Shown: positions 1 through 12,185, numbered from the stretch's first letter. The stretch: DNA of 12,722 nucleotides from a virus (IMGVR_UViG_2711768053_000016:1-12722); one strand, 5' to 3'. Program-made: numbers and translations. The notes: a model not told the origin generated them from the sequence alone.

Positions 1-933
1 TCAGCCCTTAAACACGTTATAGCCGAGTTGCTTAGCGACCGATGCCACCATTTTTTGACCGCGAACACTGTTGCCTTCTTCGTCCAGCGGTGGTGAGAAC
101 GCGGCAATTCCCATCACGCCAGGGACGACCGCCAGAATACCGCCACCTACACCGCTTTTGCCCGGTAAACCAACGCGATACGCCCAGTCACCGGAGCGAC
201 CATACAGCCCTTCCATCATCATTTCGGCCAGAATGTACGGCACGTTGTCGGCCTGAAGAACGCGTTCATGCGTCAGCGGATTCACACCCCCCGCCGCCAG
301 CGTCGCGCCAAGTGTTGCCAGTTCAACAGTATTGAGGAGCGTGGAGCACTGACGGGTGTACACGTCACAGGCTTCCATTGCATCACAATAGAGATATTCG
401 GCGGAGTACAGCAGCCAGGCAATGGCCCGGTTATGGAAGTTGGTTGTTTGTTCCGACTGGTTGACTTCGTCAGAGAGCGCTACCTGCTCACCAGCCAGTT
501 GCTGTTGGATATGTAAAATTCGCTGCCAGCGTTGTTCAACATTTTCAGCGTTAATCAGGCTGGTGGTGGCAATGGCGCCAGCATTTACCAGTGGCGAAAG
601 CGGTTTGCCGCCATGCAACTCTAAGGCGATAACTGAGTTAAAGGGCAATCCGGTCGGGTCAGCGCCAATTTTGTCCTGTACCGCCTGCGGGCCGACATCC
701 TCTAACGCAAGGGCTAACGTACAGACTTTCGAGATGGATTCCAGCGCAAAGCGGTAATCACTATCACCCGCGCGATAGATGTTGCCATCGCAGGTCACAA
801 TAGCCACTGCTGCCAGTTGACTAGGTACATTCGCCAGAAAGGGAATGTAGTCGGCATTTTGTCCGCCGTTAAGTGAGTGAAATTGGGTGTAAGCCTGATC
901 CACTGCCTGCTGTAATTTGTTTGCATCTAACAT
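1..933 (-). CDS. glsA: Glutaminase (serine-dependent, beta-lactamase-like fold), complete; stop codon at window bases 1-3
   Basis: 310-aa ORF; I recognise the protein as E. coli YbaS/GlsA1-like glutaminase from memory, including the S-x-x-K nucleophile motif (ESISKVC) and the C-terminal GLPGKSGVGGGI segment. GC-rich host-like composition. Confidence 0.9.
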   Translation of the reverse strand: MLDANKLQQAVDQAYTQFHSLNGGQNADYIPFLANVPSQLAAVAIVTCDGNIYRAGDSDYRFALESISKVCTLALALEDVGPQAVQDKIGADPTGLPFNSVIALELHGGKPLSPLVNAGAIATTSLINAENVEQRWQRILHIQQQLAGEQVALSDEVNQSEQTTNFHNRAIAWLLYSAEYLYCDAMEACDVYTRQCSTLLNTVELATLGATLAAGGVNPLTHERVLQADNVPYILAEMMMEGLYGRSGDWAYRVGLPGKSGVGGGILAVVPGVMGIAAFSPPLDEEGNSVRGQKMVASVAKQLGYNVFKG

Positions 934-1201: not shown

Positions 1202-2224
1202 TTAACTACCCTCTAAAATCCCCACTTTGCCTCCAAAGTGTGGACACAATGTGGACATTCCTACAAGAGGATTATAATTCACTGCATCCAATAAATAATC
1301 AGGTGCAAAATGAGCATATGTCATTGTTTGTGAAATATCTGCGTGACCAAGAATTCTTTGTAACGCAATTATATTCCCGCCCTTCATCATAAAATGAGTA
1401 GCAAACGTATGACGCAATGCATGAGCTGCCTGACCATCAGGTAAATTAGGTTTTGCCTCTTTCATTTTTAAACGAAAAGTTTTGTAACTCACACGAAAAA
1501 GTCGACCAGATTCTCGATGCCTTACAATATTTACAACCTCCTCTGAAATGGGAACAACTCGCCGGTCGCCATTTTTTGTAAGCGTAAATATCACCCTATT
1601 ACCCACAATATTTTCCGCTTTGAGCTGATAAGCCTCACCCCACCTCGCACCAGTTGCAAGCAAGAGAACAGCAATCCGGAAATAATCACCAGTGCATAAG
1701 GATAATAACCGCTTAACCTCAGACTCGGTAAAGTAAGACATCTCAGTTTTTGGCTCTTTTAAAGCAGATATTGCCTCTACAGGATTATCCCCATGAAACT
1801 CATCGATCTCAGCCATCGCCTTAAACATACCGCTCAGAGCAAAAAGATCATGGTTAATCGTTGAAGCCTTTATACCTTGCCCCAATCTATATGCCCGGTA
1901 TTCGATAAGGCATCGACCATCAATCTGATAAATCATGGGATCCCCCATATCCTGGCAAATACAGCTTAACGCACTAAGCCTACGATTAGCGTAGTTCTTA
2001 TTACGTCCAATGAGCTGCCACCACAAAGCGATAAACTCACTCAGTCGCCGCTTGTCTGCAGGACGACTCAGGTAGTCATGGTTCTGATACTTTGCAATGA
2101 TGCTTCGTTCAAAAGCATGCGCCTCCGCTTTTCTCTCAAACTTCCGCCGGATACGCTTTCCGTCGCGCCCGCGCGGCCTTACATCCACTTCATAGCGACC
2201 ATCTTCGAGCTTCTTAACAGACAC
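1202..2224 (-). CDS. int: P2-type tyrosine integrase (site-specific recombinase)
   Basis: Recognisable similarity to P2 Int N-terminus (KKLEDGRYEVDVRPRGRDGKRIRRKF) and tyrosine-recombinase catalytic signature (GARWGEA ... HALRHTFATH ... LGHADISQTMTYAHF). Maximal ORF begins at ATG 2254; I prefer the GTG at 2224 because GGAGGG lies 7 nt upstream and the product then aligns with the P2 Int start. Confidence 0.9.
   Translation of the reverse strand: MSVKKLEDGRYEVDVRPRGRDGKRIRRKFERKAEAHAFERSIIAKYQNHDYLSRPADKRRLSEFIALWWQLIGRNKNYANRRLSALSCICQDMGDPMIYQIDGRCLIEYRAYRLGQGIKASTINHDLFALSGMFKAMAEIDEFHGDNPVEAISALKEPKTEMSYFTESEVKRLLSLCTGDYFRIAVLLLATGARWGEAYQLKAENIVGNRVIFTLTKNGDRRVVPISEEVVNIVRHRESGRLFRVSYKTFRLKMKEAKPNLPDGQAAHALRHTFATHFMMKGGNIIALQRILGHADISQTMTYAHFAPDYLLDAVNYNPLVGMSTLCPHFGGKVGILEGS
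1239..1257. repeat. Tandem direct repeat TGTGGACA-caa-TGTGGACA (11-bp spacing) inside the 3-prime end of int; candidate arm-type Int binding sites
   Basis: Repeat seen directly in sequence. Its role as arm sites is inference from P2-like attP architecture, where Int arm sites lie next to the int 3-prime end. Confidence 0.35.
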
Positions 2225-2293
2225 AAGAAGTCCCTCCAACAGTCTGTTCACCATCCTGAAAACAAATGGTGAAAATGTAATGTTTATAAAGCG

Positions 2294-2593
2294 TTAACCA
2301 ATCTGTTTCCCGGAGGGGCCAGATTGTGTTGTCTCTGGCCCAGTGTGTGCAAGAGCCGGGGCGATCTGACCTCGGCTAGGGTCTATACGGTCATACATGA
2401 ACCAATCTTGATACTTATGGAAACGGGGATGACCAAAGAGTTTGATCGCAGCCTCCAATGACATTTTCGCCTTGCCTAGCTCATAACCGTTGTACGTACC
2501 ATAATTTACACCAATCAAATCAGCAACTTGCTTAGATTTAAGGCGTTCTGAATCTCGGATTAACTGTAGTTTTTCATGTTGTGGTATTGACAT
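2294..2593 (-). CDS. P2 C-type immunity repressor (99 aa)
   Basis: Same length as P2 C and recognisable similarity (ADLIGVNYGTY..YELG, GQIAPALAH). Located between int and the divergent early operon as in P2. Confidence 0.8.
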   Translation of the reverse strand: MSIPQHEKLQLIRDSERLKSKQVADLIGVNYGTYNGYELGKAKMSLEAAIKLFGHPRFHKYQDWFMYDRIDPSRGQIAPALAHTGPETTQSGPSGKQIG

Positions 2594-2717
2594 AATATGT
2601 CAGATCTCTCATTGTATGCATCAATTGACACTCGCAAGCGGCGTTGACCGCTCATAACACCAAGGGCTTGCTTAGCTAAACATGCCTCAACAAGCCTCAA
2701 GCAGTGGAGTTTATCAA
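2594..2717. promoter_or_regulatory. Lysis/lysogeny switch region between C and the cox-like gene (expected Pc/Pe promoters and C operators)
   Basis: Position by analogy with P2/186. Contains TTGACA (2625-2630), a second TTGAC 19 bp downstream, and on the minus strand a TACAAT about 18 nt upstream of the C start. Exact promoter and operator assignments are not resolved. Confidence 0.5.
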
Positions 2718-3179
2718 ATGAAAGAAATGCGAGAAAACGAATTAAATATGGAAACTCATTTTTTACGTCAGTTCCCGCTAGACAACGGACGAGCTCTGCG
2801 TACCTGCAAAATGACAGAAACACAAGCTGCGCGTATCAGAGACATCAGCCTAGAAGAGCTACAAAAACAAATCTTCGCCACTCCGGAAGAGTTTGCTTAT
2901 CTAACTGGTCGCACCCTCAAATCGGTGCGCAACCTGATGGATCGTGCGCAGGTGCCAGTTCATAGAGAAGGCATGCCCGGGTCAAAGCGCCCTAAACGCT
3001 TCATCATGTTGCAAGAATACTGGAAAGCTGTTGCTCATTGCCGCGCTCTCATCACTCCAGAAGAAAAACACTACATTGATCGTCTGATGCGTGACAAGAA
3101 GACTTATCGCCGCACAACCGGTAAAGAGCATCGAGTTCTAAAACGCAATAGCATCAGTGCACTGCAGGCAGGACTATAA
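2718..3179 (+). CDS. Cox-like DNA-binding regulator/excisionase with a C-terminal extension (153 aa)
   Basis: First gene of the rightward operon. GGAG lies 8 nt upstream of ATG 2718 (the track ORF starts at ATG 2682). The pattern FAYLTGRT..VRNLMD..PV..EYW resembles P2 Cox (FAKLIGKS..VRRMID..PV..EYW), but the protein is longer than P2 Cox. Confidence 0.55.
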   Translation: MKEMRENELNMETHFLRQFPLDNGRALRTCKMTETQAARIRDISLEELQKQIFATPEEFAYLTGRTLKSVRNLMDRAQVPVHREGMPGSKRPKRFIMLQEYWKAVAHCRALITPEEKHYIDRLMRDKKTYRRTTGKEHRVLKRNSISALQAGL

Positions 3180-3595: not shown

Positions 3596-3778
3596 TCACT
3601 CAGGGAAAGTCCATGTACTTGCCTGAGGATATTTTTCCAACGTGAGCTTACGCACTTCGTGCATAAGCTTACGAATGGTATTTGATGGCTCTCCTTTATT
3701 CGGAGGATTAACCGGCGCTTTCTCTAATACATAAATTGCCGCATTTAGCGCATCAATAACCTTTTTATCATAGGACAT
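3596..3778 (-). CDS. Hypothetical small protein (60 aa), oriented against the early operon
   Basis: ORF with AAGGA 7 nt upstream of its ATG on the minus strand. Its stop abuts the stop of the 3182..3595 gene (convergent, no spacer). No recognisable motif. Confidence 0.45.
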   Translation of the reverse strand: MSYDKKVIDALNAAIYVLEKAPVNPPNKGEPSNTIRKLMHEVRKLTLEKYPQASTWTFPE

Positions 3779-4281
3779 ATTTTATTCCTTTGTGGTTGGT
3801 TGAACACGCGCCCTTTACAGCCCCTTCAAGACTGCGGGCGGTGGAAAAATACCACAAAACCATGCGCCGGGCATGGCTAAAACCCGGCACAAATTCGCAA
3901 CAGCAGCAGGATATTTTTGTATGAAGCAACGACGTAATTCTTCACAGCAACGCTTCCGCAACGGGGCGGAACGCCACGCTAACCGTTTCGCTACCAGTGC
4001 ATCACGCAGCAGCTCTCGCTACAGCCTGAGTGATACACACGCAACGCCGGATGGCTACCCAGTAAAACAAATCGGCGAGCATGCCTAGCTGATTGAGAAA
4101 GCTGGAATCGTGGTCCACAAATGCCCACGCAATCCGCTTACCGGAAACCGCATTTTTGCATTGAGCTGCGGCGACAATCAGTTCGGGCAGGATTTCACAT
4201 TATACGAAGCACTTCGCACGGTTGATCGTCTGCTTCGCGGACAAAGTTTTATTAAACAGGTTGATTTATAACAGGTGATTT

Positions 4282-4560
4282 ATGACCAAAGAGTATGCAC
4301 AAGGTGTATTTATCCGTTTTATTGATTTTCGCGGTGAACTGTTATTACGCGCATCAGCCATTGACGGAGTTGTTCCATCCGAAAAAAACGCAGCTACTTA
4401 CGTTTATCTGAACGGTACGCGCCTGACTGTGGAGCTTCCGTACCAGACCGTACGAGAAATCATTAGCGAAGCTGAAAAGGCACGTCAGATTAATAGCGAT
4501 GAACCATACATCGAAATTATCTGCATGGATTCAAAAGCAGAAATCCAGAAGGCAGATTAA
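4282..4560 (+). CDS. Hypothetical protein (92 aa)
   Basis: ORF with AGGTGA immediately upstream; first gene after a roughly 500-bp non-coding gap. Confidence 0.6.
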   Translation: MTKEYAQGVFIRFIDFRGELLLRASAIDGVVPSEKNAATYVYLNGTRLTVELPYQTVREIISEAEKARQINSDEPYIEIICMDSKAEIQKAD

Positions 4561-4571
4561 AGGACGTTGCA

Positions 4572-4814
4572 ATGGACCAGGAATACAAAACTCTCGTCAA
4601 TAAAGCACTTGAGCGCTTTCATTTTCGCTTAAACACGTCAGGCCCCCACGCTGAACACGCAGCCCATGATTCATTAGCGAGGGCTATCAGAAGTCTTTAT
4701 GACGTAGCTTTTTACGCTGACGATTTGGATGCGATTAACGAGCTTTCCGAACTCGTCTGCGCCGCAGAATGCGGAGAACGCATTGAACCGTATAAGCTGG
4801 GGGATATCGCATGA
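4572..4814 (+). CDS. Hypothetical protein (80 aa)
   Basis: ORF with AAGGA 8 nt upstream, 11 nt after the preceding stop. Confidence 0.6.
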   Translation: MDQEYKTLVNKALERFHFRLNTSGPHAEHAAHDSLARAIRSLYDVAFYADDLDAINELSELVCAAECGERIEPYKLGDIA

Positions 4815-4924
4815 GTATATTTATCTCATGGCTTGTTCTGATTATTTCGGTGGTCTGCGCCATTGGGATTATGCGAATTATTCATTCAGTAAAAAAGATT
4901 GAACGTTTTTTCTCTGATGAATAA
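4811..4924 (+). CDS. Small hydrophobic peptide (37 aa, MSIFISWLVLIISVVCAIGIMRIIHSVKKIERFFSDE), predicted single TM helix with basic C-terminus
   Basis: Not in the supplied ORF track (too short). ATG overlaps the upstream stop (ATGA) and GGGGGA lies 7 nt upstream. Hydrophobic run of about 20 residues. Confidence 0.4.
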   Translation: MSIFISWLVLIISVVCAIGIMRIIHSVKKIERFFSDE

Positions 4925-5017
4925 CGATACAAATAAAACATCAAATTAAATAAGAAAACGTGAAAACCATCCGTATTAACGGAGGTATTCGCACACGCAA
5001 ATAACGGAGATATAAAA

Positions 5018-6037: not shown

Positions 6038-6252
6038 ACAGAAGGAGAATTACACGCAGACATCGCCGCACACGCCTGAGCTCCCCGCCAACACTAAAGG
6101 AACTCATTCAAAGCGAGATCGGTGATTTCTTCGCTGGGTTTGGATCACCTGGCGAACCAGAAACACCAGAAGCGATGCAGCGCGAACTCATGATGCGCAT
6201 CGATAACGTTTTTGACTTTTTCCTGAATAACAAAAGAGAGCAACCGACATGA
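6034..6252 (+). CDS. Hypothetical protein (72 aa) with arginine-rich N-terminus (MNRRRITRRHRRTR) and acidic C-terminal half
   Basis: ORF translationally coupled upstream and downstream. The Arg-rich motif suggests nucleic-acid binding; this is inference only. Confidence 0.55.
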   Translation: MNRRRITRRHRRTRLSSPPTLKELIQSEIGDFFAGFGSPGEPETPEAMQRELMMRIDNVFDFFLNNKREQPT

Positions 6253-6452
6253 ACGAAAGGACCTGGTTTCGCGCATACATGTGGGCGCTGGTATGCGCCC
6301 TCTTTTCTCTCATTCTGTATGCAGGACTACTCCCCCGAATGATTTCATCAGACAGCTCCTTCCTGGTATTGCTGGGCATTTTCATTGCCATGCTGTACCC
6401 GGCAGGCGTTGTTCGCCTTTTCAGTAAGTACATCAAGGAAATCAAACAATGA
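6249..6452 (+). CDS. Small integral membrane protein (67 aa, two predicted TM helices)
   Basis: Two hydrophobic segments (WALVCALFSLILYAGLL and FLVLLGIFIAMLYPAGVV). Stop overlaps the start of the SPFH gene (ATGA). Confidence 0.6.
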   Translation: MNERTWFRAYMWALVCALFSLILYAGLLPRMISSDSSFLVLLGIFIAMLYPAGVVRLFSKYIKEIKQ

Positions 6453-7279
6453 AGAAATTCAAACTCTTTCAGATTCTCCCGCTTTTTGCCGCCATCCTGC
6501 TGGTTGGTTGCGATCGCGTTGAGCCAGGTAATGTGGGCATCAAAGTCAACAAACTGGGCGACGACAAAGGCGTCGGCGAAGTAGTTGGCGTTGGCCGCTA
6601 CTGGACAGGCTGGAATACAGAGGTTTACATCTTCCCGACCTTCAAACAAATGAAGACCTACGATGAGCCGTTCAGCTTTCAGATGAGTGACGGCACAACC
6701 ATCGGCTATCACATCGGTGTGGCCTACAAGGTTGATCCATCCAAAGTTACCACAGTGTTTCAGACCTACCGCAAAGGCGTGGATGACATTACCGACACTG
6801 ACCTGCGCCAGAAGATCGCCGATGCACTCAACCGACTGGCCAGCAAAATGACCACCGATAAGTTTATCGACGGTGGTAAGTCTGAACTGCTGGATTCAGC
6901 ACTTAAAGATATTCAGGAAGAGATGACCCCCATCGGCATTCAGGTCATGAGCCTCTCTTATGTCGGTAAACCGGAATATCCGCCAACCGTTATCGACAGC
7001 ATTAACGCCAAAGTCACGGCAAACCAGAAAACCCTGCAACGCGAACAGGAAGTCAAGCAACGCGAAGCAGAAGCCAACATGCTGCGCGCAGAAGCTGCCG
7101 GACAGGCTGATGCCATTCGCACAAAAGCCCAGGCTGAAGCCGACGCCATTCGTTTACGCGGTGAAGCTCTGCGCCAGAATCCCGGCGTTATGGAGCTGGA
7201 AGCAATCAACAAATGGAACGGCACGCTACCGCAATACATGACCAGCAATACCGCTGTTCCGTTTGTTCCGGTGAAGTAA
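6449..7279 (+). CDS. SPFH/band-7 (stomatin/prohibitin/HflKC-like) lipoprotein (276 aa)
   Basis: N-terminal signal peptide with lipobox LLVGC. SPFH-like entry motif (VEPGNVGIKVNKLG), followed by an Ala/Glu/Arg/Gln-rich coiled-coil segment (EAEANMLRAEAAGQADAIRTKAQAEADAIRLRGEA) typical of HflK/HflC-type proteins. Family assignment from memory of the domain signature, not a search. Confidence 0.75.
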   Translation: MKKFKLFQILPLFAAILLVGCDRVEPGNVGIKVNKLGDDKGVGEVVGVGRYWTGWNTEVYIFPTFKQMKTYDEPFSFQMSDGTTIGYHIGVAYKVDPSKVTTVFQTYRKGVDDITDTDLRQKIADALNRLASKMTTDKFIDGGKSELLDSALKDIQEEMTPIGIQVMSLSYVGKPEYPPTVIDSINAKVTANQKTLQREQEVKQREAEANMLRAEAAGQADAIRTKAQAEADAIRLRGEALRQNPGVMELEAINKWNGTLPQYMTSNTAVPFVPVK

Positions 7280-7330: not shown

Positions 7331-7447
7331 AGCATGCCGTTCTCACAAAAAAACCGCTTGCCATGCCGCAATCAGTCAGGTTACATTTCCGCTGCACCTC
7401 ATAAAACGGGTGCCGGGTTTCGCAGCCTGCTGATCAACAAAGCGCAC

Positions 7448-7468
7448 AACCGCGCCAGCGGTTTTTTT
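7448..7468 (+). terminator. Compact hairpin (AACCGC-GCCA-GCGGTT) immediately followed by T7; intrinsic-terminator-like
   Basis: Seen directly in sequence. Lies in a roughly 320-bp stretch with no convincing coding potential. Confidence 0.45.
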
Positions 7469-7650
7469 GTGCGTACCGCATTGCCGCACATTTTTTCGCA
7501 TCAGAATTATGGTGGGGCGTACGGGGCCGACTTCGGTCGGGCCGGGTTTTCTTTGTTGACCGGTACTGCGAACCTCGTACGTCTCGCCACCCACAGTTTC
7601 GCAGCTCTGGATGGCGAGTATTTAAAACTTACCAACAAAGAGGCCACACC

Positions 7651-7881
7651 ATGGCAAACCGCAAACAGCACCGCGCTATCGCGGAGCGTCGTCACATCCA
7701 GACTGAAATCGATCGCAGACTCACCCGCGCTGCACACATCGCCTTTATCATGCAATCCAACACATTGCACAGACTCAACAGCACTATTTCAGCCGACTAC
7801 TGCGCCGCTGTATTCAGCTATCTGGCGGAAGACCTCCTGTCTCTTCAGGATCTCATCCAGCAGCAAAACAAACTCCATTAA
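7651..7881 (+). CDS. Hypothetical protein (76 aa)
   Basis: AAAGAGG lies 7 nt upstream of the ATG. Overlaps, in another frame, the long track ORF 7334..8320, whose upstream part I consider non-coding. Confidence 0.5.
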   Translation: MANRKQHRAIAERRHIQTEIDRRLTRAAHIAFIMQSNTLHRLNSTISADYCAAVFSYLAEDLLSLQDLIQQQNKLH

Positions 7882-7954
7882 TCCCTGTTCCGGGCCTTTC
7901 CTGCACCTTGCGGCGGGAGGCCTTCGCACATCTGTAGTAAAGAGGATTGCCGCA

Positions 7955-8320
7955 ATGATTCTCGCCAACGACTTTCTTGAATACCTGCTCAACACAGAGC
8001 GTGATCTTGCCGTTCGCGTGCGTGACCGTTATGACATGTACCTGAAATCCCTGCCCGCACCGCAGCTCGCTGACGGAAAAATTGTTATTGATGGTCGCTA
8101 CATGATTGACAGCCACGAGGGGAATTACAGGCTTTACCGCATTGAAGGCGGCACCCCGTCCGTTATTGGCATTTACCAGCGCCCATCCTCTGCGATCGTC
8201 GATGTGATTGCCGACAGCATCCGCATCACACACCACCATGCCGACACAGAAGACACTGTGCTGGAGATTCAGCGGCTGGCTGCCGTTTGCCGTGACACTC
8301 TGAATGGCATGACGAAGTAA
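7955..8320 (+). CDS. Hypothetical protein (121 aa) immediately upstream of the replication gene
   Basis: Internal ATG of the track ORF 7334..8320, with AAAGAGGA 9 nt upstream. Ends 6 nt before the gpA-like start. Confidence 0.55.
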   Translation: MILANDFLEYLLNTERDLAVRVRDRYDMYLKSLPAPQLADGKIVIDGRYMIDSHEGNYRLYRIEGGTPSVIGIYQRPSSAIVDVIADSIRITHHHADTEDTVLEIQRLAAVCRDTLNGMTK

Positions 8321-8326
8321 ATCAGT

Positions 8327-11149
8327 ATGACGACAGAGTACATCAGGGACTGGCAACAACCGCGCCACGCAGTAGGACGTGAAGGAACGGAGATCCCCGC
8401 ACCTGAATCCGCACTTTCCTCCTGGCTGGATGCCTACCGGGCAGAGAACGAACGCCGCCAGGAAATGGCTGATGCGGCGTTCTCCGCCACACCGCTGGGC
8501 AACCTGATTAATAAAAGCCTGGACGCACAGGAAAAACAGGACAAAACCATCACACTGGCAGGAGACGCCAGAAAGCAGGCACGCGGCGCGGTGGATGAAG
8601 CCATGGCCTCGCTGCGCCTGCTGCCGTCCTATCTGCGCGATCCGCTTATTCGCCACCTCTCCTTCCTGCGCAAAAAACAGGAAGCTGATCGCCGGAAAGG
8701 CAAAAAGAGCTGGCAGGCTGAACGCTACGCGCGCGGAACCCTGCGCAAAATATTCGAACGCCTGGACCGCACCGACCACCGCTGGCTGACACCGGGTTAT
8801 CGCTCCCTTGCCGGACGCGAACGCCTGGACGATTTGCTTTACCTGCCGCAGCTCAACAAACACCAGATACAGACGCTGGCCACCATGACGGCGGCGATGT
8901 TCAGCAGCACCTTCGAAAAACTCTGCGATGGCTTTGGCGCGACCGATGGCGAACTGACCATGGATGTAACGCTGAAGGCGTATCAGATGCTGGCCCGCAT
9001 GGCGTTACACCTGCACATCATGCCTCCACATTATGACGCACTGACAACAGATAAAGACCGGAGGAACGAACCGGACACGGAGCTGCTGCCGGGCGCAATC
9101 CTTCGCCTGACCTGTGCGGAATGGTGGAAACGCAAACTGTGGCTGTTACGTTGCGAGTGGAGAGAAGAACAACTCCGCGCCGCCTGTCTGGTTTCCAGAA
9201 AAACATCACCCTATCTGAGCCAGGACGCGTTAAGCGAGTTTCGCGCACAGCGCGAGAAAACACGCGATTTCCTGAAAAGTTTCATGCTGGAAAATGAAGA
9301 CGGGTTCACGATTGATCTCGAGACAGTGTATTACGCGGGAGTAAGTAACCCGGTTCACCGTAAGGCAGAAATGATGGCCACCATGAAGGGACTGGAACTT
9401 CTGGCCGAAGCCCGTGGCGACAGAGCGGTGTTTCTGACTGTCACCTGCCCGTCAAAATACCACGCAACAACGGAGAACGGTCATCCGAACCCCAAATGGA
9501 ACGGGGCCACCATGCGCGACTCCAGCGATTACCTGGTTAACACGTTTTTTGCGGCGGTCCGCAAAAAACTGAACCGCGACGGCCTGCGCTGGTATGGCAT
9601 CCGCACGGTGGAGCCTCACCATGACGGCACCGTGCACTGGCATATGATGGTCTTTGCTCATCCGGAAGAAATCGACAGCATCGTGGCCATCACCCGCGAT
9701 ATTGCCATTCAGGAAGACCGCCACGAGCTGGGCAATGATATTACTCCGCGCTTTAAGGTGGAGTATGTCGACGGCTCCAAAGGCACACCAACCAGCTATA
9801 TCGCGACCTACATCGGAAAAAACCTGGACAGCCGCGCCGTGGATGGCATCGACCCGAAAACGGGCAAGCCACGCGTTGACCACGAAACCGGAAAATCAAT
9901 GGCCGAGAGTGTGGAACGCGCCATCGGCTGGGCGCGCCTTCACCGAGTCCGCCAGTTCCAGTTCTTTGGCATCCCCTCCCGTCAGGTATGGCGTGAACTC
10001 CGCCGCCTTGCCAGCCAGATGGCACGCAACCCGGAAGGCCCACAACGGCTGAAGGATGATGCAATGGATGCGGTACTCGCTGCCGCTGATGCCGGGTGTT
10101 TTGCCACCTACATTGAGAAACAGGGCGGCGTACTTGTTCCACGCAAAGACTACCTGATTCGCACCGCCTACAACCTCGCAGATGAGCTGAACGATTACGG
10201 CGAACAGAGCGTACAGATTTACGGGATCTGGTCACCACTCATCGGGGAATCCTCCCGTGTGTGCACGCACCCGGATAACTGGAAGCTGGTAAGACGTAAA
10301 CCGGAAGCGGAAGACAGCACCCGCGAAAATGGTTTTGACCTTCAGGGCGGCCCTGCCGCCCCTTGGACTCGTGGCAATAACTGTCCCCGTGTACAGGAAA
10401 CGGACAACAACGGGACAGAACAGCCGGAAGAACGGCCAGCACCGTGGCCGCAGCTCCCTGACGGCGTTGAAGTGAACGAATGGATGCGCTCACTGAAACG
10501 GCACGAACGCCGGGCGCTGATGCGTTCGCTTCGTGCCAAACAGGCAAAAAACAGCAGTGATGAAATGCAGAGCTGGACACAGAGCCACAAACAGCAGCGG
10601 CCTTTGCCTGATAACCACGAATTACTCGCTAAAGAATGGCGGGAATCTGCCGAATCTCTCGGCCTGCATATCGGTGAACAGCAGATGCAGCACCTGTTAC
10701 GGGGCGGCAGCCTGTACGTTGACGGCAGCATCATTGCACCGCAGGGATTTGAAATTGTACGCAAACCGGATACCCGCCCGGACAGCCGAATCACGCAGCT
10801 CTGGCAGCGCCTGAGCCGTAATCACGGCGTAAGCAGCACGGAGATCCGCCATAACCCGGTCGCCAGCTATCTGGAACAGCTGGGGGCATCAGACCCCGAA
10901 GCCGCCGCACGTCTGGCATCCACACTTCAGCAGGACCAGAACACCATGAAAACCCCCGTTACCGTGCTTTCTGACATGCTGCGCGCCATCCGTGACGCAG
11001 AGCACGCACAGAGAATCAGTGAAACCACTGAACGCGCCCACCGCAAAGCAGACCTGCTGCGGGGTAGCCTGACCAGTGGAAACAAAAAACAGACAGAAAC
11101 GGGATTCACAAATCCCGTAAATGAGCAAAAAACGTGCCGCGATATATGA
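8327..11149 (+). CDS. P2 gpA-family rolling-circle replication initiator (HUH endonuclease), 940 aa
   Basis: Rolling-circle initiator motifs in order: AVFLTVTCPSKYH (motif 1), HDGTVHWHMMVF (HUH, His437/His439), and SYIATYIGKN with two tyrosines 4 residues apart (Tyr491/Tyr495). Position at the end of the early operon matches P2 gene A; the protein is longer than P2 gpA. Confidence 0.85.
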   Translation: MTTEYIRDWQQPRHAVGREGTEIPAPESALSSWLDAYRAENERRQEMADAAFSATPLGNLINKSLDAQEKQDKTITLAGDARKQARGAVDEAMASLRLLPSYLRDPLIRHLSFLRKKQEADRRKGKKSWQAERYARGTLRKIFERLDRTDHRWLTPGYRSLAGRERLDDLLYLPQLNKHQIQTLATMTAAMFSSTFEKLCDGFGATDGELTMDVTLKAYQMLARMALHLHIMPPHYDALTTDKDRRNEPDTELLPGAILRLTCAEWWKRKLWLLRCEWREEQLRAACLVSRKTSPYLSQDALSEFRAQREKTRDFLKSFMLENEDGFTIDLETVYYAGVSNPVHRKAEMMATMKGLELLAEARGDRAVFLTVTCPSKYHATTENGHPNPKWNGATMRDSSDYLVNTFFAAVRKKLNRDGLRWYGIRTVEPHHDGTVHWHMMVFAHPEEIDSIVAITRDIAIQEDRHELGNDITPRFKVEYVDGSKGTPTSYIATYIGKNLDSRAVDGIDPKTGKPRVDHETGKSMAESVERAIGWARLHRVRQFQFFGIPSRQVWRELRRLASQMARNPEGPQRLKDDAMDAVLAAADAGCFATYIEKQGGVLVPRKDYLIRTAYNLADELNDYGEQSVQIYGIWSPLIGESSRVCTHPDNWKLVRRKPEAEDSTRENGFDLQGGPAAPWTRGNNCPRVQETDNNGTEQPEERPAPWPQLPDGVEVNEWMRSLKRHERRALMRSLRAKQAKNSSDEMQSWTQSHKQQRPLPDNHELLAKEWRESAESLGLHIGEQQMQHLLRGGSLYVDGSIIAPQGFEIVRKPDTRPDSRITQLWQRLSRNHGVSSTEIRHNPVASYLEQLGASDPEAAARLASTLQQDQNTMKTPVTVLSDMLRAIRDAEHAQRISETTERAHRKADLLRGSLTSGNKKQTETGFTNPVNEQKTCRDI
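11099..11118. promoter_or_regulatory. Perfect palindrome ACGGGATT-caca-AATCCCGT (site 1), overlapping the last codons of the replication gene
   Basis: Seen directly in sequence. Near-identical site 2 lies 73 bp downstream, directly upstream of parM; candidate ParR operator or centromere half. Confidence 0.4.
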
Positions 11150-11225: not shown

Positions 11226-12185
11226 ATGAAAATTTGTATCGACGACGGCTCCACCAACATCAAGCTGGCATGGACTGAGAACGGCGAACGCCGCAACGCC
11301 ATCAGCCCGAACAGCTTCAAGTCGGAATGGTCTGCGCCGTTCGGTGGCACGCAGCCCGCGAACTACATGCTTGATGGCGTGCGCTATGGTTTTGATCCGG
11401 TCAGCGATCGCTTTGTCCAGACGACCGACACGCAATACCAGTACAGCGATGTGAATGTCATTGCCATTCATCACGCGCTGGTCAAATCAGGCATCACGCC
11501 ACAGGAGGTGGATGTGGTTGTCACCCTGCCACTGAGCGAGTATTTCGACACAAACGCACAACCGGACATGGCCAACATCAACCGCAAAAAAGCGAACGTT
11601 ATGCGCCCGGTGGAGTACCAGAACGGCGAGGCATTCACTATCCGTAACGTGCGGGTTATGCCTGAATCCATTCCGGCTGGCTTTAAAGCACTGGCTGACA
11701 TGAGTCCGTTTGAATCCCTGCTGATTGTGGATTTGGGCGGAACCACGCTGGATGTGGCAAAGGTTCAGGGGCAACTGGCAGGTATCAGCCAGGTGTTTTG
11801 CGATCCACACGTAGGCGTTTCTCTGATGGCCGGTGCCGTGCTGTCGGTGATGGCCACCAACGGTATGCGTACCAGTCACCACATCGCTAATACCATTATC
11901 GAACATCGCCACGATGAAGCCTGGCTGCGCCAGCACATCCACAATAACGCACATTACGCCAGCCTGATGGCAGTTATTCGTGAAAAGGAGGAAACACTGA
12001 AACAACGCGTGATCCGCGCGCTGGCGGGTTTTTCGGGTTACGGGCGGGTGATGGTTGTAGGTGGAGGAGCGGAGATTGTGGCACCCGCTATCCGCGAAGC
12101 CTGCGGAGTTAATGCGACTTTCATCGCGGACGGGGTGCCACAGTTTGCTCTGGTTAATGGGCTGTACGCAATGGATAAGGAGTAA
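11226..12185 (+). CDS. parM: Actin-like segregation ATPase, ParM/StbA family (319 aa)
   Basis: Recognisable similarity to plasmid R1 ParM (from memory): MKICIDDGSTNIKLAW (phosphate-1), VMPESIPAG, LIVDLGGTTLD (phosphate-2), VMVVGGGAE (adenosine motif). AAGGA RBS upstream. Confidence 0.85.
   Translation: MKICIDDGSTNIKLAWTENGERRNAISPNSFKSEWSAPFGGTQPANYMLDGVRYGFDPVSDRFVQTTDTQYQYSDVNVIAIHHALVKSGITPQEVDVVVTLPLSEYFDTNAQPDMANINRKKANVMRPVEYQNGEAFTIRNVRVMPESIPAGFKALADMSPFESLLIVDLGGTTLDVAKVQGQLAGISQVFCDPHVGVSLMAGAVLSVMATNGMRTSHHIANTIIEHRHDEAWLRQHIHNNAHYASLMAVIREKEETLKQRVIRALAGFSGYGRVMVVGGGAEIVAPAIREACGVNATFIADGVPQFALVNGLYAMDKE

What the first reader, a model, noticed from the sequence alone, without database searches (positions are those of the whole stretch)
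4282..4924. Three tightly packed small genes ending in a 37-aa hydrophobic peptide
Genes of 92 and 80 aa are followed by an untracked 37-aa ORF (MSIFISWLVLIISVVCAIGIMRIIHSVKKIERFFSDE) that overlaps the upstream stop and has a good Shine-Dalgarno sequence. Single-TM peptides with a basic tail resemble small membrane toxins or holin-like and modulator peptides. Paired with upstream soluble partners, this could be a toxin/modulator set or a host-takeover factor.
Basis: partly seen in the sequence, partly recalled or inferred. Interest (0 to 1): 0.45.

Follow-up and report, generated by a model that had tools for sequence, protein, structure and literature searches.

The report
Conserved prophage small membrane peptide gene
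The 37-codon ORF is a real, evolutionarily constrained gene for a single-pass membrane peptide, always translationally coupled to an 80-aa DUF4754 protein in the early operon of P88/P2-like E. coli prophages; it is common, already annotated as a hypothetical membrane protein, and its function is unknown.

Summary
Observation confirmed. ORFs 4282-4560 (92 aa), 4572-4814 (80 aa, Pfam DUF4754) and 4811-4924 (37 aa) exist, with an ATGA stop/start overlap and a Shine-Dalgarno sequence. The window is an E. coli P88-like (Peduoviridae, Xuanwuvirus) prophage: integrase, repressor, Cox-like gene, then the early operon up to GpA.

The peptide gene is real. It is intact in 95 of 97 related loci. dN/dS is 0.21 in frame against 1.1-1.4 out of frame. 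Two divergent E. coli lineages carry 41-aa peptides (51-62% identical), again overlapping an 80-aa DUF4754 homologue that is only 30-43% identical.

The peptide has one strong TM helix (residues 3-21) and a conserved amphipathic basic tail (MRII..K.IE..F), predicted N-out/C-in.

It is not "untracked": P88 gp07 is annotated "membrane protein", and PGAP calls it WP_000021655.1. About 25% of complete E. coli genomes carry it.

The 92-aa gene is not a fixed partner; it is absent or replaced in relatives. The constant unit is DUF4761 ... DUF4754 plus the peptide.

No homology, fold or literature lead gives a function. My best guess is an early-lytic membrane-anchored modulator or host-takeover factor working with DUF4754. 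Holin, lipoprotein and TatA-like readings failed tests. A type I toxin-antitoxin locus found no support, though the antisense-RNA check was weak. An ordinary but uncharacterised phage accessory gene.

The parts
3921..4271 (+). DUF4761 gene (PF15958), first gene of the conserved module. In this window it is interrupted by an in-frame TAG at 4086-4088 (W56 to stop).
   Evidence: Pfam hits on both halves. Sequence. Intact 112-116 aa in relatives.
4282..4560 (+). 92-aa acidic beta-rich protein (phrog_3800, no Pfam). A variable cassette within the module.
   Evidence: ORF. dN/dS 0.12. AF2 pLDDT 84.5, 7 strands plus 1 helix. No significant PDB fold match; weak BFVD matches to uncharacterised small phage proteins. 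Absent or replaced in some relatives.
4572..4814 (+). 80-aa DUF4754 protein (PF15946, phrog_2549), acidic three-helix bundle. The constant upstream partner of the peptide gene.
   Evidence: Pfam E 4.9e-47. AF2 pLDDT 89, three helices. dN/dS 0.10. pI 4.85. Found 5' of the peptide in all three lineages.
4798..4803 (+). Shine-Dalgarno sequence (GGGGGA) for the peptide gene, lying inside the DUF4754 coding sequence.
   Evidence: Anti-SD duplex dG -8.4 kcal/mol here, -5.5 in the commonest allele. GAGGTGG and GAGGAG (-7.6 and -8.5) occur in the divergent lineages although the DUF4754 C-terminal residues differ.
4811..4924 (+). 37-aa single-pass membrane peptide gene (P88 gp07 family). TM residues about 3-21; conserved amphipathic basic tail 22-34.
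4960..4992 (+). Conserved RNA hairpin directly 3' of the peptide gene (core TCCGT-ATTA-ACGGA at 4970-4983), no U-tract. Marks the module boundary.
   Evidence: MFE -15.8 kcal/mol, z -3.4. Core stem 98% paired over 22 distinct sequences, with 2 of 5 pairs showing compensatory changes. Present in all three lineages.

Best explanation
SHOWN: 4811-4924 is a genuine protein-coding gene of a P88-like (P2-family) E. coli prophage. It encodes a 37-aa peptide with one strongly hydrophobic TM helix (about residues 3-21) followed by a conserved amphipathic, net-basic juxtamembrane tail (M21-R-I-I ... K28 . I-E . . F34). It is the last cistron of a conserved module, DUF4761 - (variable gene) - DUF4754 - peptide, lying right after the Cox-like gene in the early lytic operon. 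Its start overlaps the DUF4754 stop (ATGA) and it has an SD in every lineage, so it is built for translational coupling to DUF4754.

INFERRED: By the positive-inside rule it inserts N-out/C-in in the inner membrane. As part of the repressor-controlled early operon, it is made early after induction or infection, roughly in step with DUF4754. It then acts as a small membrane-anchored modulator or host-takeover factor. A conserved Ser/Cys/Ala/Gly stripe on the TM helix would pack against another TM helix, either self or a host inner-membrane protein. The amphipathic tail would dock a soluble partner, with the acidic three-helix-bundle DUF4754 as the most obvious candidate.

It is not the phage's holin and is unlikely to be a classic toxin-antitoxin locus. 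Confidence that it is a real, expressed-type membrane-peptide gene is about 0.9. Confidence in the modulator/host-takeover-with-DUF4754 mechanism is about 0.35-0.4.
For: Coding and purifying selection:
- ORF intact in 95/97 loci.
- dN/dS 0.21 in frame versus 1.1-1.4 off frame.
- Cross-lineage pS 0.52-0.78 versus pN 0.21-0.26, with second codon positions least changed. Fisher p 3e-3 to 4e-6.

Coupling:
- ATGA overlap in every one of the 97 loci scanned, and in the L101/L102/L105 lineages.
- SD retained although the overlapping DUF4754 residues differ.
- Start codon lies in a small CAUGAG/CUCAUG hairpin.

Membrane character:
- Mean Kyte-Doolittle 2.81 over residues 3-21; summed biological-scale dG -3.35 kcal/mol.
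- No charge N-terminal of the TM. Four K/R in the tail; tail hydrophobic moment 1.98 versus 0.31 for the TM.
- Conserved residues across three lineages; invariant S2/S6/S13/C16 fall on one helix face.

Pairing with DUF4754:
- Peptide region in 1344 and DUF4754 region in 1370 of 5426 complete E. coli genomes.
- The pair persists where DUF4754 is only 30-43% identical.

Operon context:
- Integrase, HTH repressor, Cox-like gene, then the module, then GpA.
- Phage 186 carries fil (division inhibitor) and dhr (host replication inhibitor) in the equivalent slot; P2 carries orf78 and B.
Against: - No experimental or homology evidence for any function: Pfam, PHROGs, NCBIfam, PADLOC, PDB sequence search and Foldseek were all uninformative. 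No paper mentions DUF4754 or WP_000021655.
- DUF4754 and peptide alleles reassort. L102 combines a window-type DUF4754 with a P0208-type peptide. The peptide region is 95-99% identical to the window in 443 genomes, whereas the DUF4754 region never exceeds 95%. A highly allele-specific complex is therefore unlikely.
- No complex prediction could be run.
- Expression timing is inferred from operon position only. The window has a minus-strand 60-aa gene (3596-3778) between the Cox-like region and the module.
- Topology is a rule-based prediction.
Confidence: 0.4

Rival explanations
1. Membrane-damaging toxin (type I-toxin-like or pore-former). The peptide oligomerises in the inner membrane and dissipates the proton motive force. 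DUF4754 or an antisense RNA restrains it, giving an addiction, abortive or host-shutoff function.
For: Size, single TM and charged tail resemble TisB, DinQ and Hok-type peptides (own knowledge; reviews and papers listed). There is a conserved small-residue stripe on the TM helix. Coupling to an upstream ORF recalls mok/hok (own knowledge).
Against: - No sigma70-like promoter or Rfam antisense RNA on either strand around 4811-5017.
- The gene is an internal cistron of a long operon rather than a stand-alone locus.
- The G-U wobbles in the 3' hairpin fit the + strand only, so it is not an antisense terminator.
- A prophage remnant keeps an intact peptide gene without DUF4754 (L098). DUF4754 and peptide alleles reassort freely.
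- The conserved amphipathic tail motif suggests a specific partner rather than generic membrane insertion.
Confidence: 0.2
2. Exclusion or anti-defence factor. The peptide sits in the inner membrane during lytic growth. It either blocks DNA entry of superinfecting phages (T4 Imm-like logic) or neutralises a membrane-bound host abortive-infection or defence effector.
For: Small membrane proteins in early phage operons do this in other systems (own knowledge: T4 Imm/Sp). The early accessory region of these prophages also carries other membrane and counter-defence-type cargo: an SPFH/Band_7 protein with a small membrane protein at 6249-7279, and a Dam-type methyltransferase in L102.
Against: No PADLOC or other match. 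It lies in the repressed early operon, so it is probably not expressed in the lysogen, where classical exclusion genes of P2 (old, tin, fun) act. The module is nearly invariant, whereas defence and anti-defence cargo is usually highly variable.
Confidence: 0.15
3. Tiny lipoprotein (Cor/Llp/Rz1-like). Residues 1-15 would be a signal peptide cleaved before Cys16, leaving a 22-aa lipopeptide.
For: Cys16 is invariant within the 37-aa lineage. The commonest allele reads I-S-V-A-C, which fits the PROSITE lipobox pattern (pattern from own knowledge).
Against: The -1 residue is Val or Ile in many alleles, including this window. Cys16 is Met in the P0208 lineage. There is no K/R in the n-region, and the hydrophobic stretch continues past the Cys.
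Confidence: 0.03
4. Holin, pinholin or antiholin-type lysis timer.
For: Small size, a TM helix and a charged C-terminus.
Against: It lies in the early operon between the Cox-like gene and GpA, not in a lysis cassette. It has a single TM and a single start codon. The module occupies the slot that fil/dhr occupy in phage 186.
Confidence: 0.03

Closest known systems
Phage P88 gp07 'membrane protein' (YP_009113050.1), RefSeq WP_000021655.1, UniProt 'Prophage membrane protein' A0A2Y8H055
   Same: Same gene family: 86-92% identical 37-aa peptide, same position overlapping the DUF4754 stop, same operon.
   Different: Nothing of substance; this is an allelic variant (V15, S35-D36-E37 tail). No member has been characterised.
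Bacterial small membrane-protein modulators (AcrZ, MgtS, CydX, Blr, KdpF)
   Same: 30-50 aa, one TM helix and a short polar tail. They act by binding larger membrane proteins (own knowledge; review PMC12648545).
   Different: No sequence relationship. Those are chromosomal stress-regulated genes, whereas this is a phage early-operon cistron coupled to a soluble protein. The target is unknown.
Type I toxins (TisB, DinQ, Hok/Mok, Ldr)
   Same: Small hydrophobic single-TM peptides. Hok translation is coupled to an overlapping upstream ORF (own knowledge; PMC3567139 and PMC11997105 listed).
   Different: No antisense RNA or own promoter was detected. The gene is inside a polycistronic operon and has a conserved amphipathic tail. 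Toxicity is untested.
Phage 186 fil and dhr, and P2 orf78 and B: genes in the same operon slot (between apl/cox and the first internal terminator)
   Same: Positional analogues in related P2-family phages. fil blocks cell division and dhr inhibits host replication; both are followed by a structured element or terminator.
   Different: No homology, and none of them is a membrane peptide: best 19-residue hydrophobicity is at most 1.4, versus 2.8 here.
SPO1 gp56 (host-takeover module, inhibits B. subtilis cell division)
   Same: A small early phage protein of a host-takeover operon that is growth-inhibitory when expressed alone (PMC6873191). That it is membrane-anchored is from my own knowledge.
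   Different: Unrelated sequence, larger protein, Gram-positive lytic phage. Offered only as a functional analogy.

Membership tests
P88 gp07-type prophage membrane peptide | Sequence similarity to P88 gp07 over the full length | tested here: met
   tblastn 91.9% identity over 37/37 residues to P88, E 8e-14. The exact sequence sits in a 183-member 90% cluster.
P88 gp07-type prophage membrane peptide | Located immediately 3' of a DUF4754 gene with an ATGA overlap, in the early operon of a P2-family prophage | tested here: met
DUF4754 (PF15946), for the 80-aa gene | Pfam HMM above the gathering score | tested here: met
   158.6 bits against a cut-off of 27, full-length match.
Type I toxin-antitoxin | Small hydrophobic membrane peptide | tested here: met
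   TM residues 3-21, mean KD 2.81.
Type I toxin-antitoxin | Overlapping or adjacent antisense sRNA with its own promoter and terminator | tested here: not met
   No promoter-like site on the minus strand across 4811-5017, and no Rfam hit at E<=1. The 3' hairpin pairs as + strand RNA. Consensus scans are weak evidence.
Type I toxin-antitoxin | Independent transcription unit with translation held off by mRNA structure or sRNA | tested here: not met
   It is an internal cistron, coupled by ATGA overlap plus SD to DUF4754.
Type I toxin-antitoxin | Toxicity on overexpression | not testable with these tools
   Needs expression in vivo.
Type II toxin-antitoxin (DUF4754 as antitoxin) | Two-gene autoregulated operon with a DNA-binding antitoxin; cognate pairs co-inherited | tested here: not met
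   No promoter found. DUF4754 is a plain three-helix bundle without HTH/RHH matches. Alleles reassort. A remnant keeps the peptide without DUF4754.
Holin / pinholin | Encoded in the late lysis cassette next to an endolysin and spanins | tested here: not met
   It lies in the early operon between the Cox-like gene and GpA.
Bacterial lipoprotein (Cor/Llp/Rz1-like) | Lipobox [LVI][ASTVI][GAS]C with an invariant Cys and a positively charged n-region | tested here: not met
   V or I at -1 in many alleles, including the window. Cys to Met in P0208. No K/R before the TM.
TatA/TatE (PF02416) | HMM match above threshold; F-G hinge between TM and amphipathic helix | tested here: not met
   Only P0209 gave 16.9 bits against a cut-off of 104 for an NCBIfam TatA model. 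No Pfam TatA hit at E<=10 for four peptide alleles tested, P0208, P0209, P0205 and the commonest 37-aa allele, nor at E<=0.1 for the window peptide. The architecture (TM plus amphipathic helix) is similar only in outline.

The most novel reading that the evidence does not exclude
DUF4754 plus the TM peptide form a dedicated two-component, membrane-targeted host-takeover or anti-defence device peculiar to P88-type phages. The peptide's conserved TM face would bind a specific host inner-membrane machine, such as the divisome, a transporter or a membrane-bound defence effector. Its amphipathic MRII..K.IE..F tail would recruit the acidic DUF4754 bundle as a fourth helix. The result would be a new mechanism by which a very common E. 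coli prophage family rewires the envelope early in lytic growth.
Probability: 0.2. Interest if true: 0.55.

Novelty: new member of a known kind. Interest (0 to 1): 0.3.

Why it matters
About a quarter of complete E. coli genomes, including O157:H7 EDL933, ST131 and ETEC H10407, carry this peptide gene. Nothing is known about it or about its DUF4754 and DUF4761 neighbours. It is a clean, well-constrained example of a phage-encoded small membrane protein. The candidate partner and operon context are now defined, so a simple genetic test becomes worthwhile. If it targets a host membrane machine, it would add to the short list of phage small-protein inhibitors. As it stands, it is an ordinary uncharacterised accessory gene, not a surprise.

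Tried and rejected
- Family searches (Pfam, PHROGs, NCBIfam, PADLOC) of the 92-aa protein, the 80-aa protein, the peptide and their neighbours gave only DUF or unknown families.
- PDB sequence searches found nothing.
- The search for homologous proteins refuses queries under 40 aa. The exhaustive HMMER search was used for the peptide instead and found only 7 clusters, all in the same prophage family.
- The genome-contig scan returned just 2 loci.
- The DUF4754, 92-aa and DUF4761 families are all narrow, restricted to Escherichia, Shigella, Salmonella, Citrobacter, Cronobacter and Hafnia. Apparent distant members were frameshift artefacts.
- Literature searches for DUF4754, WP_000021655, Xuanwuvirus, CP-933T and phage P88 gave no functional data.
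- P2 and 186 early operons hold no analogous TM peptide.
- Overlapping alternative ORFs (4729-4902 on +, 4735-4863 on -) are rejected because off-frame dN/dS is 1 or more.
- The lipoprotein, holin and TatA-like readings are rejected; see the membership tests.
- The hairpin as a minus-strand intrinsic terminator was considered because a T-rich tract follows it on the minus strand. It is disfavoured because the G-U wobbles pair only on the + strand.
- Phage 503458's '51% identical' peptide comes from a fragmented, low-quality record and was ignored.

Full report
**1. What is there**

The window reads as an E. coli chromosome-prophage junction:
- glutaminase gene, 1-933 (-)
- tyrosine integrase, 1202-2254 (-)
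- HTH repressor, 2294-2593 (-)
- rightward operon: a 165-aa Cox-like protein (2682-3179), a 137-aa ORF, a short minus-strand 60-aa ORF, then DUF4761, the 92-aa ORF, DUF4754 and the 37-aa ORF
- a 136-aa ORF, a MarR-type wHTH, a small membrane protein plus an SPFH/Band_7 protein
- GpA replication endonuclease, 8327-11149
- ParM, 11226-12185

It is identical over the module to an E. coli draft contig (L010, GCA_001268445.1). It is 86-92% identical to Peduoviridae of the genus Xuanwuvirus (phage P88 and relatives) and to prophages in 1360 of 5426 complete E. coli genomes.

The three ORFs of the finding are exactly where stated. The gaps are 10 and 11 nt. The last two genes overlap by ATGA (4811-4814), preceded by GGGGGA 8 nt upstream.

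**2. Is the 37-codon ORF real?**

Length alone means nothing, since there are 135 ORFs of at least 30 aa in 12.7 kb. Comparative evidence is decisive.
- In 97 related loci the ORF starts at the same ATGA. It is intact at 37 codons in all but a few. Four variants carry a 45-aa frameshifted tail that diverges around codon 34. A T-run at codons 32-34 (CGT TTT TTC) is the likely slippage site, though I did not check the variant DNA. One variant is truncated to 30 aa.
- Among 41 distinct nucleotide haplotypes, dN/dS is 0.21 in frame but 1.36 and 1.12 in the other two frames. The neighbouring genes give 0.10-0.12.
- An exhaustive HMMER scan of 1.84 billion representatives found only seven clusters. 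Two of them are divergent 41-aa peptides, P0208 and P0209, listed there at 62% and 54% identity; BLASTP against the window peptide gives 62% and 51%.
- Both divergent peptides come from rarer E. coli prophage lineages (18 and 10 of 5426 genomes). Both again lie immediately after an 80-aa gene with the ATGA overlap.
- Between lineages, synonymous sites are near saturation (pS 0.52-0.78) while pN is 0.21-0.26. Second codon positions are the least changed. Fisher p is 3e-3 to 4e-6.
- The SD is kept (GAGGTGG, GAGGAG; dG -7.6 and -8.5 kcal/mol) even though the overlapping DUF4754 C-terminal residues are different.

This is a protein-coding gene under purifying selection with a conserved initiation site.

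**3. What the peptide looks like**

- Residues 3-21 form a strongly hydrophobic segment, with mean Kyte-Doolittle 2.81 and summed biological-scale dG -3.35 kcal/mol.
- Nothing charged precedes it.
- The tail RIIHSVKKIERFFSDE holds four K/R and is strongly amphipathic.
- The positive-inside rule therefore predicts N-out/C-in. This is an inference.
- Conserved across all three lineages: M1, S6, W7, L10, I11, A17, G19, M21-R22-I23-I24, K28, I30-E31 and F34.
- Within the main lineage, the invariant small or polar residues S2, S6, S13 and C16 fall on one helix face. That pattern is typical of helix-helix packing surfaces (inference).
- The last three to four residues vary freely and tolerate frameshifts.

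**4. The unit it belongs to**

The comparative picture differs.
- DUF4761 always heads the block.
- The 92-aa gene is a replaceable cassette. It is missing in the L101/L103/L104/L105 lineages. An unrelated 84-aa gene takes its place in L024/L033/L074/L102.
- DUF4754 and the peptide are the constant pair. They are found in 1370 and 1344 complete genomes respectively.
- The pair persists even where DUF4754 has diverged to 30-43% identity.
- The two genes nevertheless recombine with each other. L102 joins a window-type DUF4754 to a P0208-type peptide. The peptide region of the window is 95-99% identical in 443 genomes, whereas its DUF4754 region never exceeds 95%.
- Any physical interaction must therefore rest on the conserved residues rather than on allele-specific ones.

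**5. The soluble neighbours**

- AlphaFold2 gives confident models. The 92-aa protein has seven strands and one helix (pLDDT 84.5). DUF4754 is a three-helix bundle (pLDDT 89).
- Foldseek against the PDB gives nothing significant.
- BFVD gives only weak similarity of the 92-aa fold to other uncharacterised small phage proteins.
- DUF4754 is acidic (pI about 4.6-4.9) and DUF4761 is basic (pI 10.2).
- No Pfam, PHROG, NCBIfam or PADLOC function exists for any of them. No paper mentions them.

**6. Operon logic**

- In P2 and 186, the segment between cox/apl and the first internal terminator carries orf78 and B, or cII, fil and dhr respectively. fil blocks cell division and dhr depresses host replication.
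- The P88-type module occupies the same slot and ends in a conserved structured element. This is a + strand hairpin at about 4960-4992, with MFE -15.8 kcal/mol and z -3.4.
- Its 5-bp core is 98% paired across 22 distinct sequences. Two pairs show compensatory changes, the loops vary, and the G-U wobbles are compatible only with the + strand.
- The hairpin has no U-tract.
- Downstream of it the gene content switches between relatives, so the peptide gene is the last cistron of a recombination module.
- Neither P2 nor 186 has a TM peptide here.
- No sigma70-like promoter or Rfam RNA lies in or around the peptide gene.
- Expression is therefore inferred to come from the repressor-controlled early promoter, meaning early lytic rather than lysogenic.

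**7. Mechanism**

Shown: a constrained, SD-equipped, stop-start-overlapped cistron encoding a single-TM peptide with a conserved amphipathic tail, always behind DUF4754 in an early phage operon.

Inferred as the best explanation (about 0.35-0.4): an inner-membrane-anchored modulator or host-takeover factor, made in step with DUF4754. It would use its TM face to bind another TM helix and its tail to dock a soluble partner, possibly DUF4754 as a fourth helix.

Rivals:
- Depolarising type I-toxin-like peptide, about 0.2. It lacks any sign of an antisense RNA or an independent locus. A prophage remnant keeps the peptide without DUF4754.
- Exclusion or anti-defence factor, about 0.15.
- Lipoprotein, about 0.03. 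The lipobox fails: V or I at -1, and Cys to Met in P0208.
- Holin-type, about 0.03. It is in the wrong operon.
- A TatA-like reading rests on one 16.9-bit sub-threshold hit and is rejected.

**8. Novelty and verdict**

- The gene is already annotated: P88 gp07 'membrane protein', PGAP WP_000021655.1, and UniProt 'Prophage membrane protein'. It belongs to a familiar kind, small single-pass phage membrane proteins.
- What is added here:
  - proof of purifying selection;
  - the definition of the true conserved unit (DUF4754 plus peptide, with DUF4761 upstream and a variable middle gene);
  - two divergent lineages;
  - the conserved tail motif;
  - the flanking hairpin.
- Function remains untested.
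- Interest is modest at 0.3. The gene is very widespread and cleanly defined, but it is not surprising.

Noticed in passing
window 4086-4088 (within DUF4761, 3921-4271): In-frame TAG replaces the Trp codon found in relatives (EHAW-LIEKAG), splitting DUF4761 into 3873-4088 and 4110-4271. The identical assembly contig L010 has it too. It is a probable nonsense mutation in the first gene of the module in this particular prophage.
   Followed up: partly
window 4960-4992 (core 4970-4983): Conserved + strand RNA hairpin just after the peptide stop, present in all three lineages. It shows compensatory changes and variable loops, has GGAGG in the 3' arm and has no U-tract. Gene content switches downstream of it. 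It sits where P2 and 186 have internal early-operon terminators.
   Followed up: partly
window 7394-7468 and 7505-7594: Rfam gathering-level hits to isrK (68.6 bits) and C4 antisense RNA (77.8 bits). Both lie inside the mechanically called 328-aa ORF (7334-8320) and just upstream of a 76-aa 'derepression protein' ORF (7651-7881). The arrangement resembles a P1/Gifsy-type sRNA-controlled antirepressor switch in a P2-family prophage.
   Followed up: no
window 6249-6452 and 6449-7279: A 67-aa membrane protein (phrog_1130, weak RseC/NfeD-like) overlaps the start of an SPFH/Band_7 protein. This is a second membrane-directed gene pair in the same early operon.
   Followed up: no
window 3846-3890: A roughly 45-nt stretch upstream of DUF4761 (CCATGCGCCGGGCATGG... 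with two alternative hairpins) is 93-96% identical to short segments in otherwise unrelated Yersinia (vB_YenM_42.18) and Salmonella (SEN4/SEN5) P2-like phages (H15-H20).
   Followed up: no
window 4809-4831: The peptide start codon lies in a perfect 6-bp inverted repeat, CATGAG(N9)CTCATG. A 5-bp version, with one G-U wobble in L105, is kept in the two divergent lineages. It may occlude the AUG and enforce dependence on ribosomes terminating at the DUF4754 stop.
   Followed up: partly
L003 (NZ_JBQPOM010000071.1, 'Vagococcus sp. WN89Y'): A 226-kb contig labelled Vagococcus (Firmicutes) carries this enterobacterial prophage module at about 89% nucleotide identity. This is probably a mislabelled or contaminated assembly.
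   Followed up: no
L024 2226-2480; L033 1027-1281; L102 4487-4741: An unrelated 84-aa ORF (MATTTKNMVEIASAY...) replaces the 92-aa gene between DUF4761 and DUF4754. The 3' end of DUF4761 changes with it, which marks a cassette-exchange point inside the module.
   Followed up: partly
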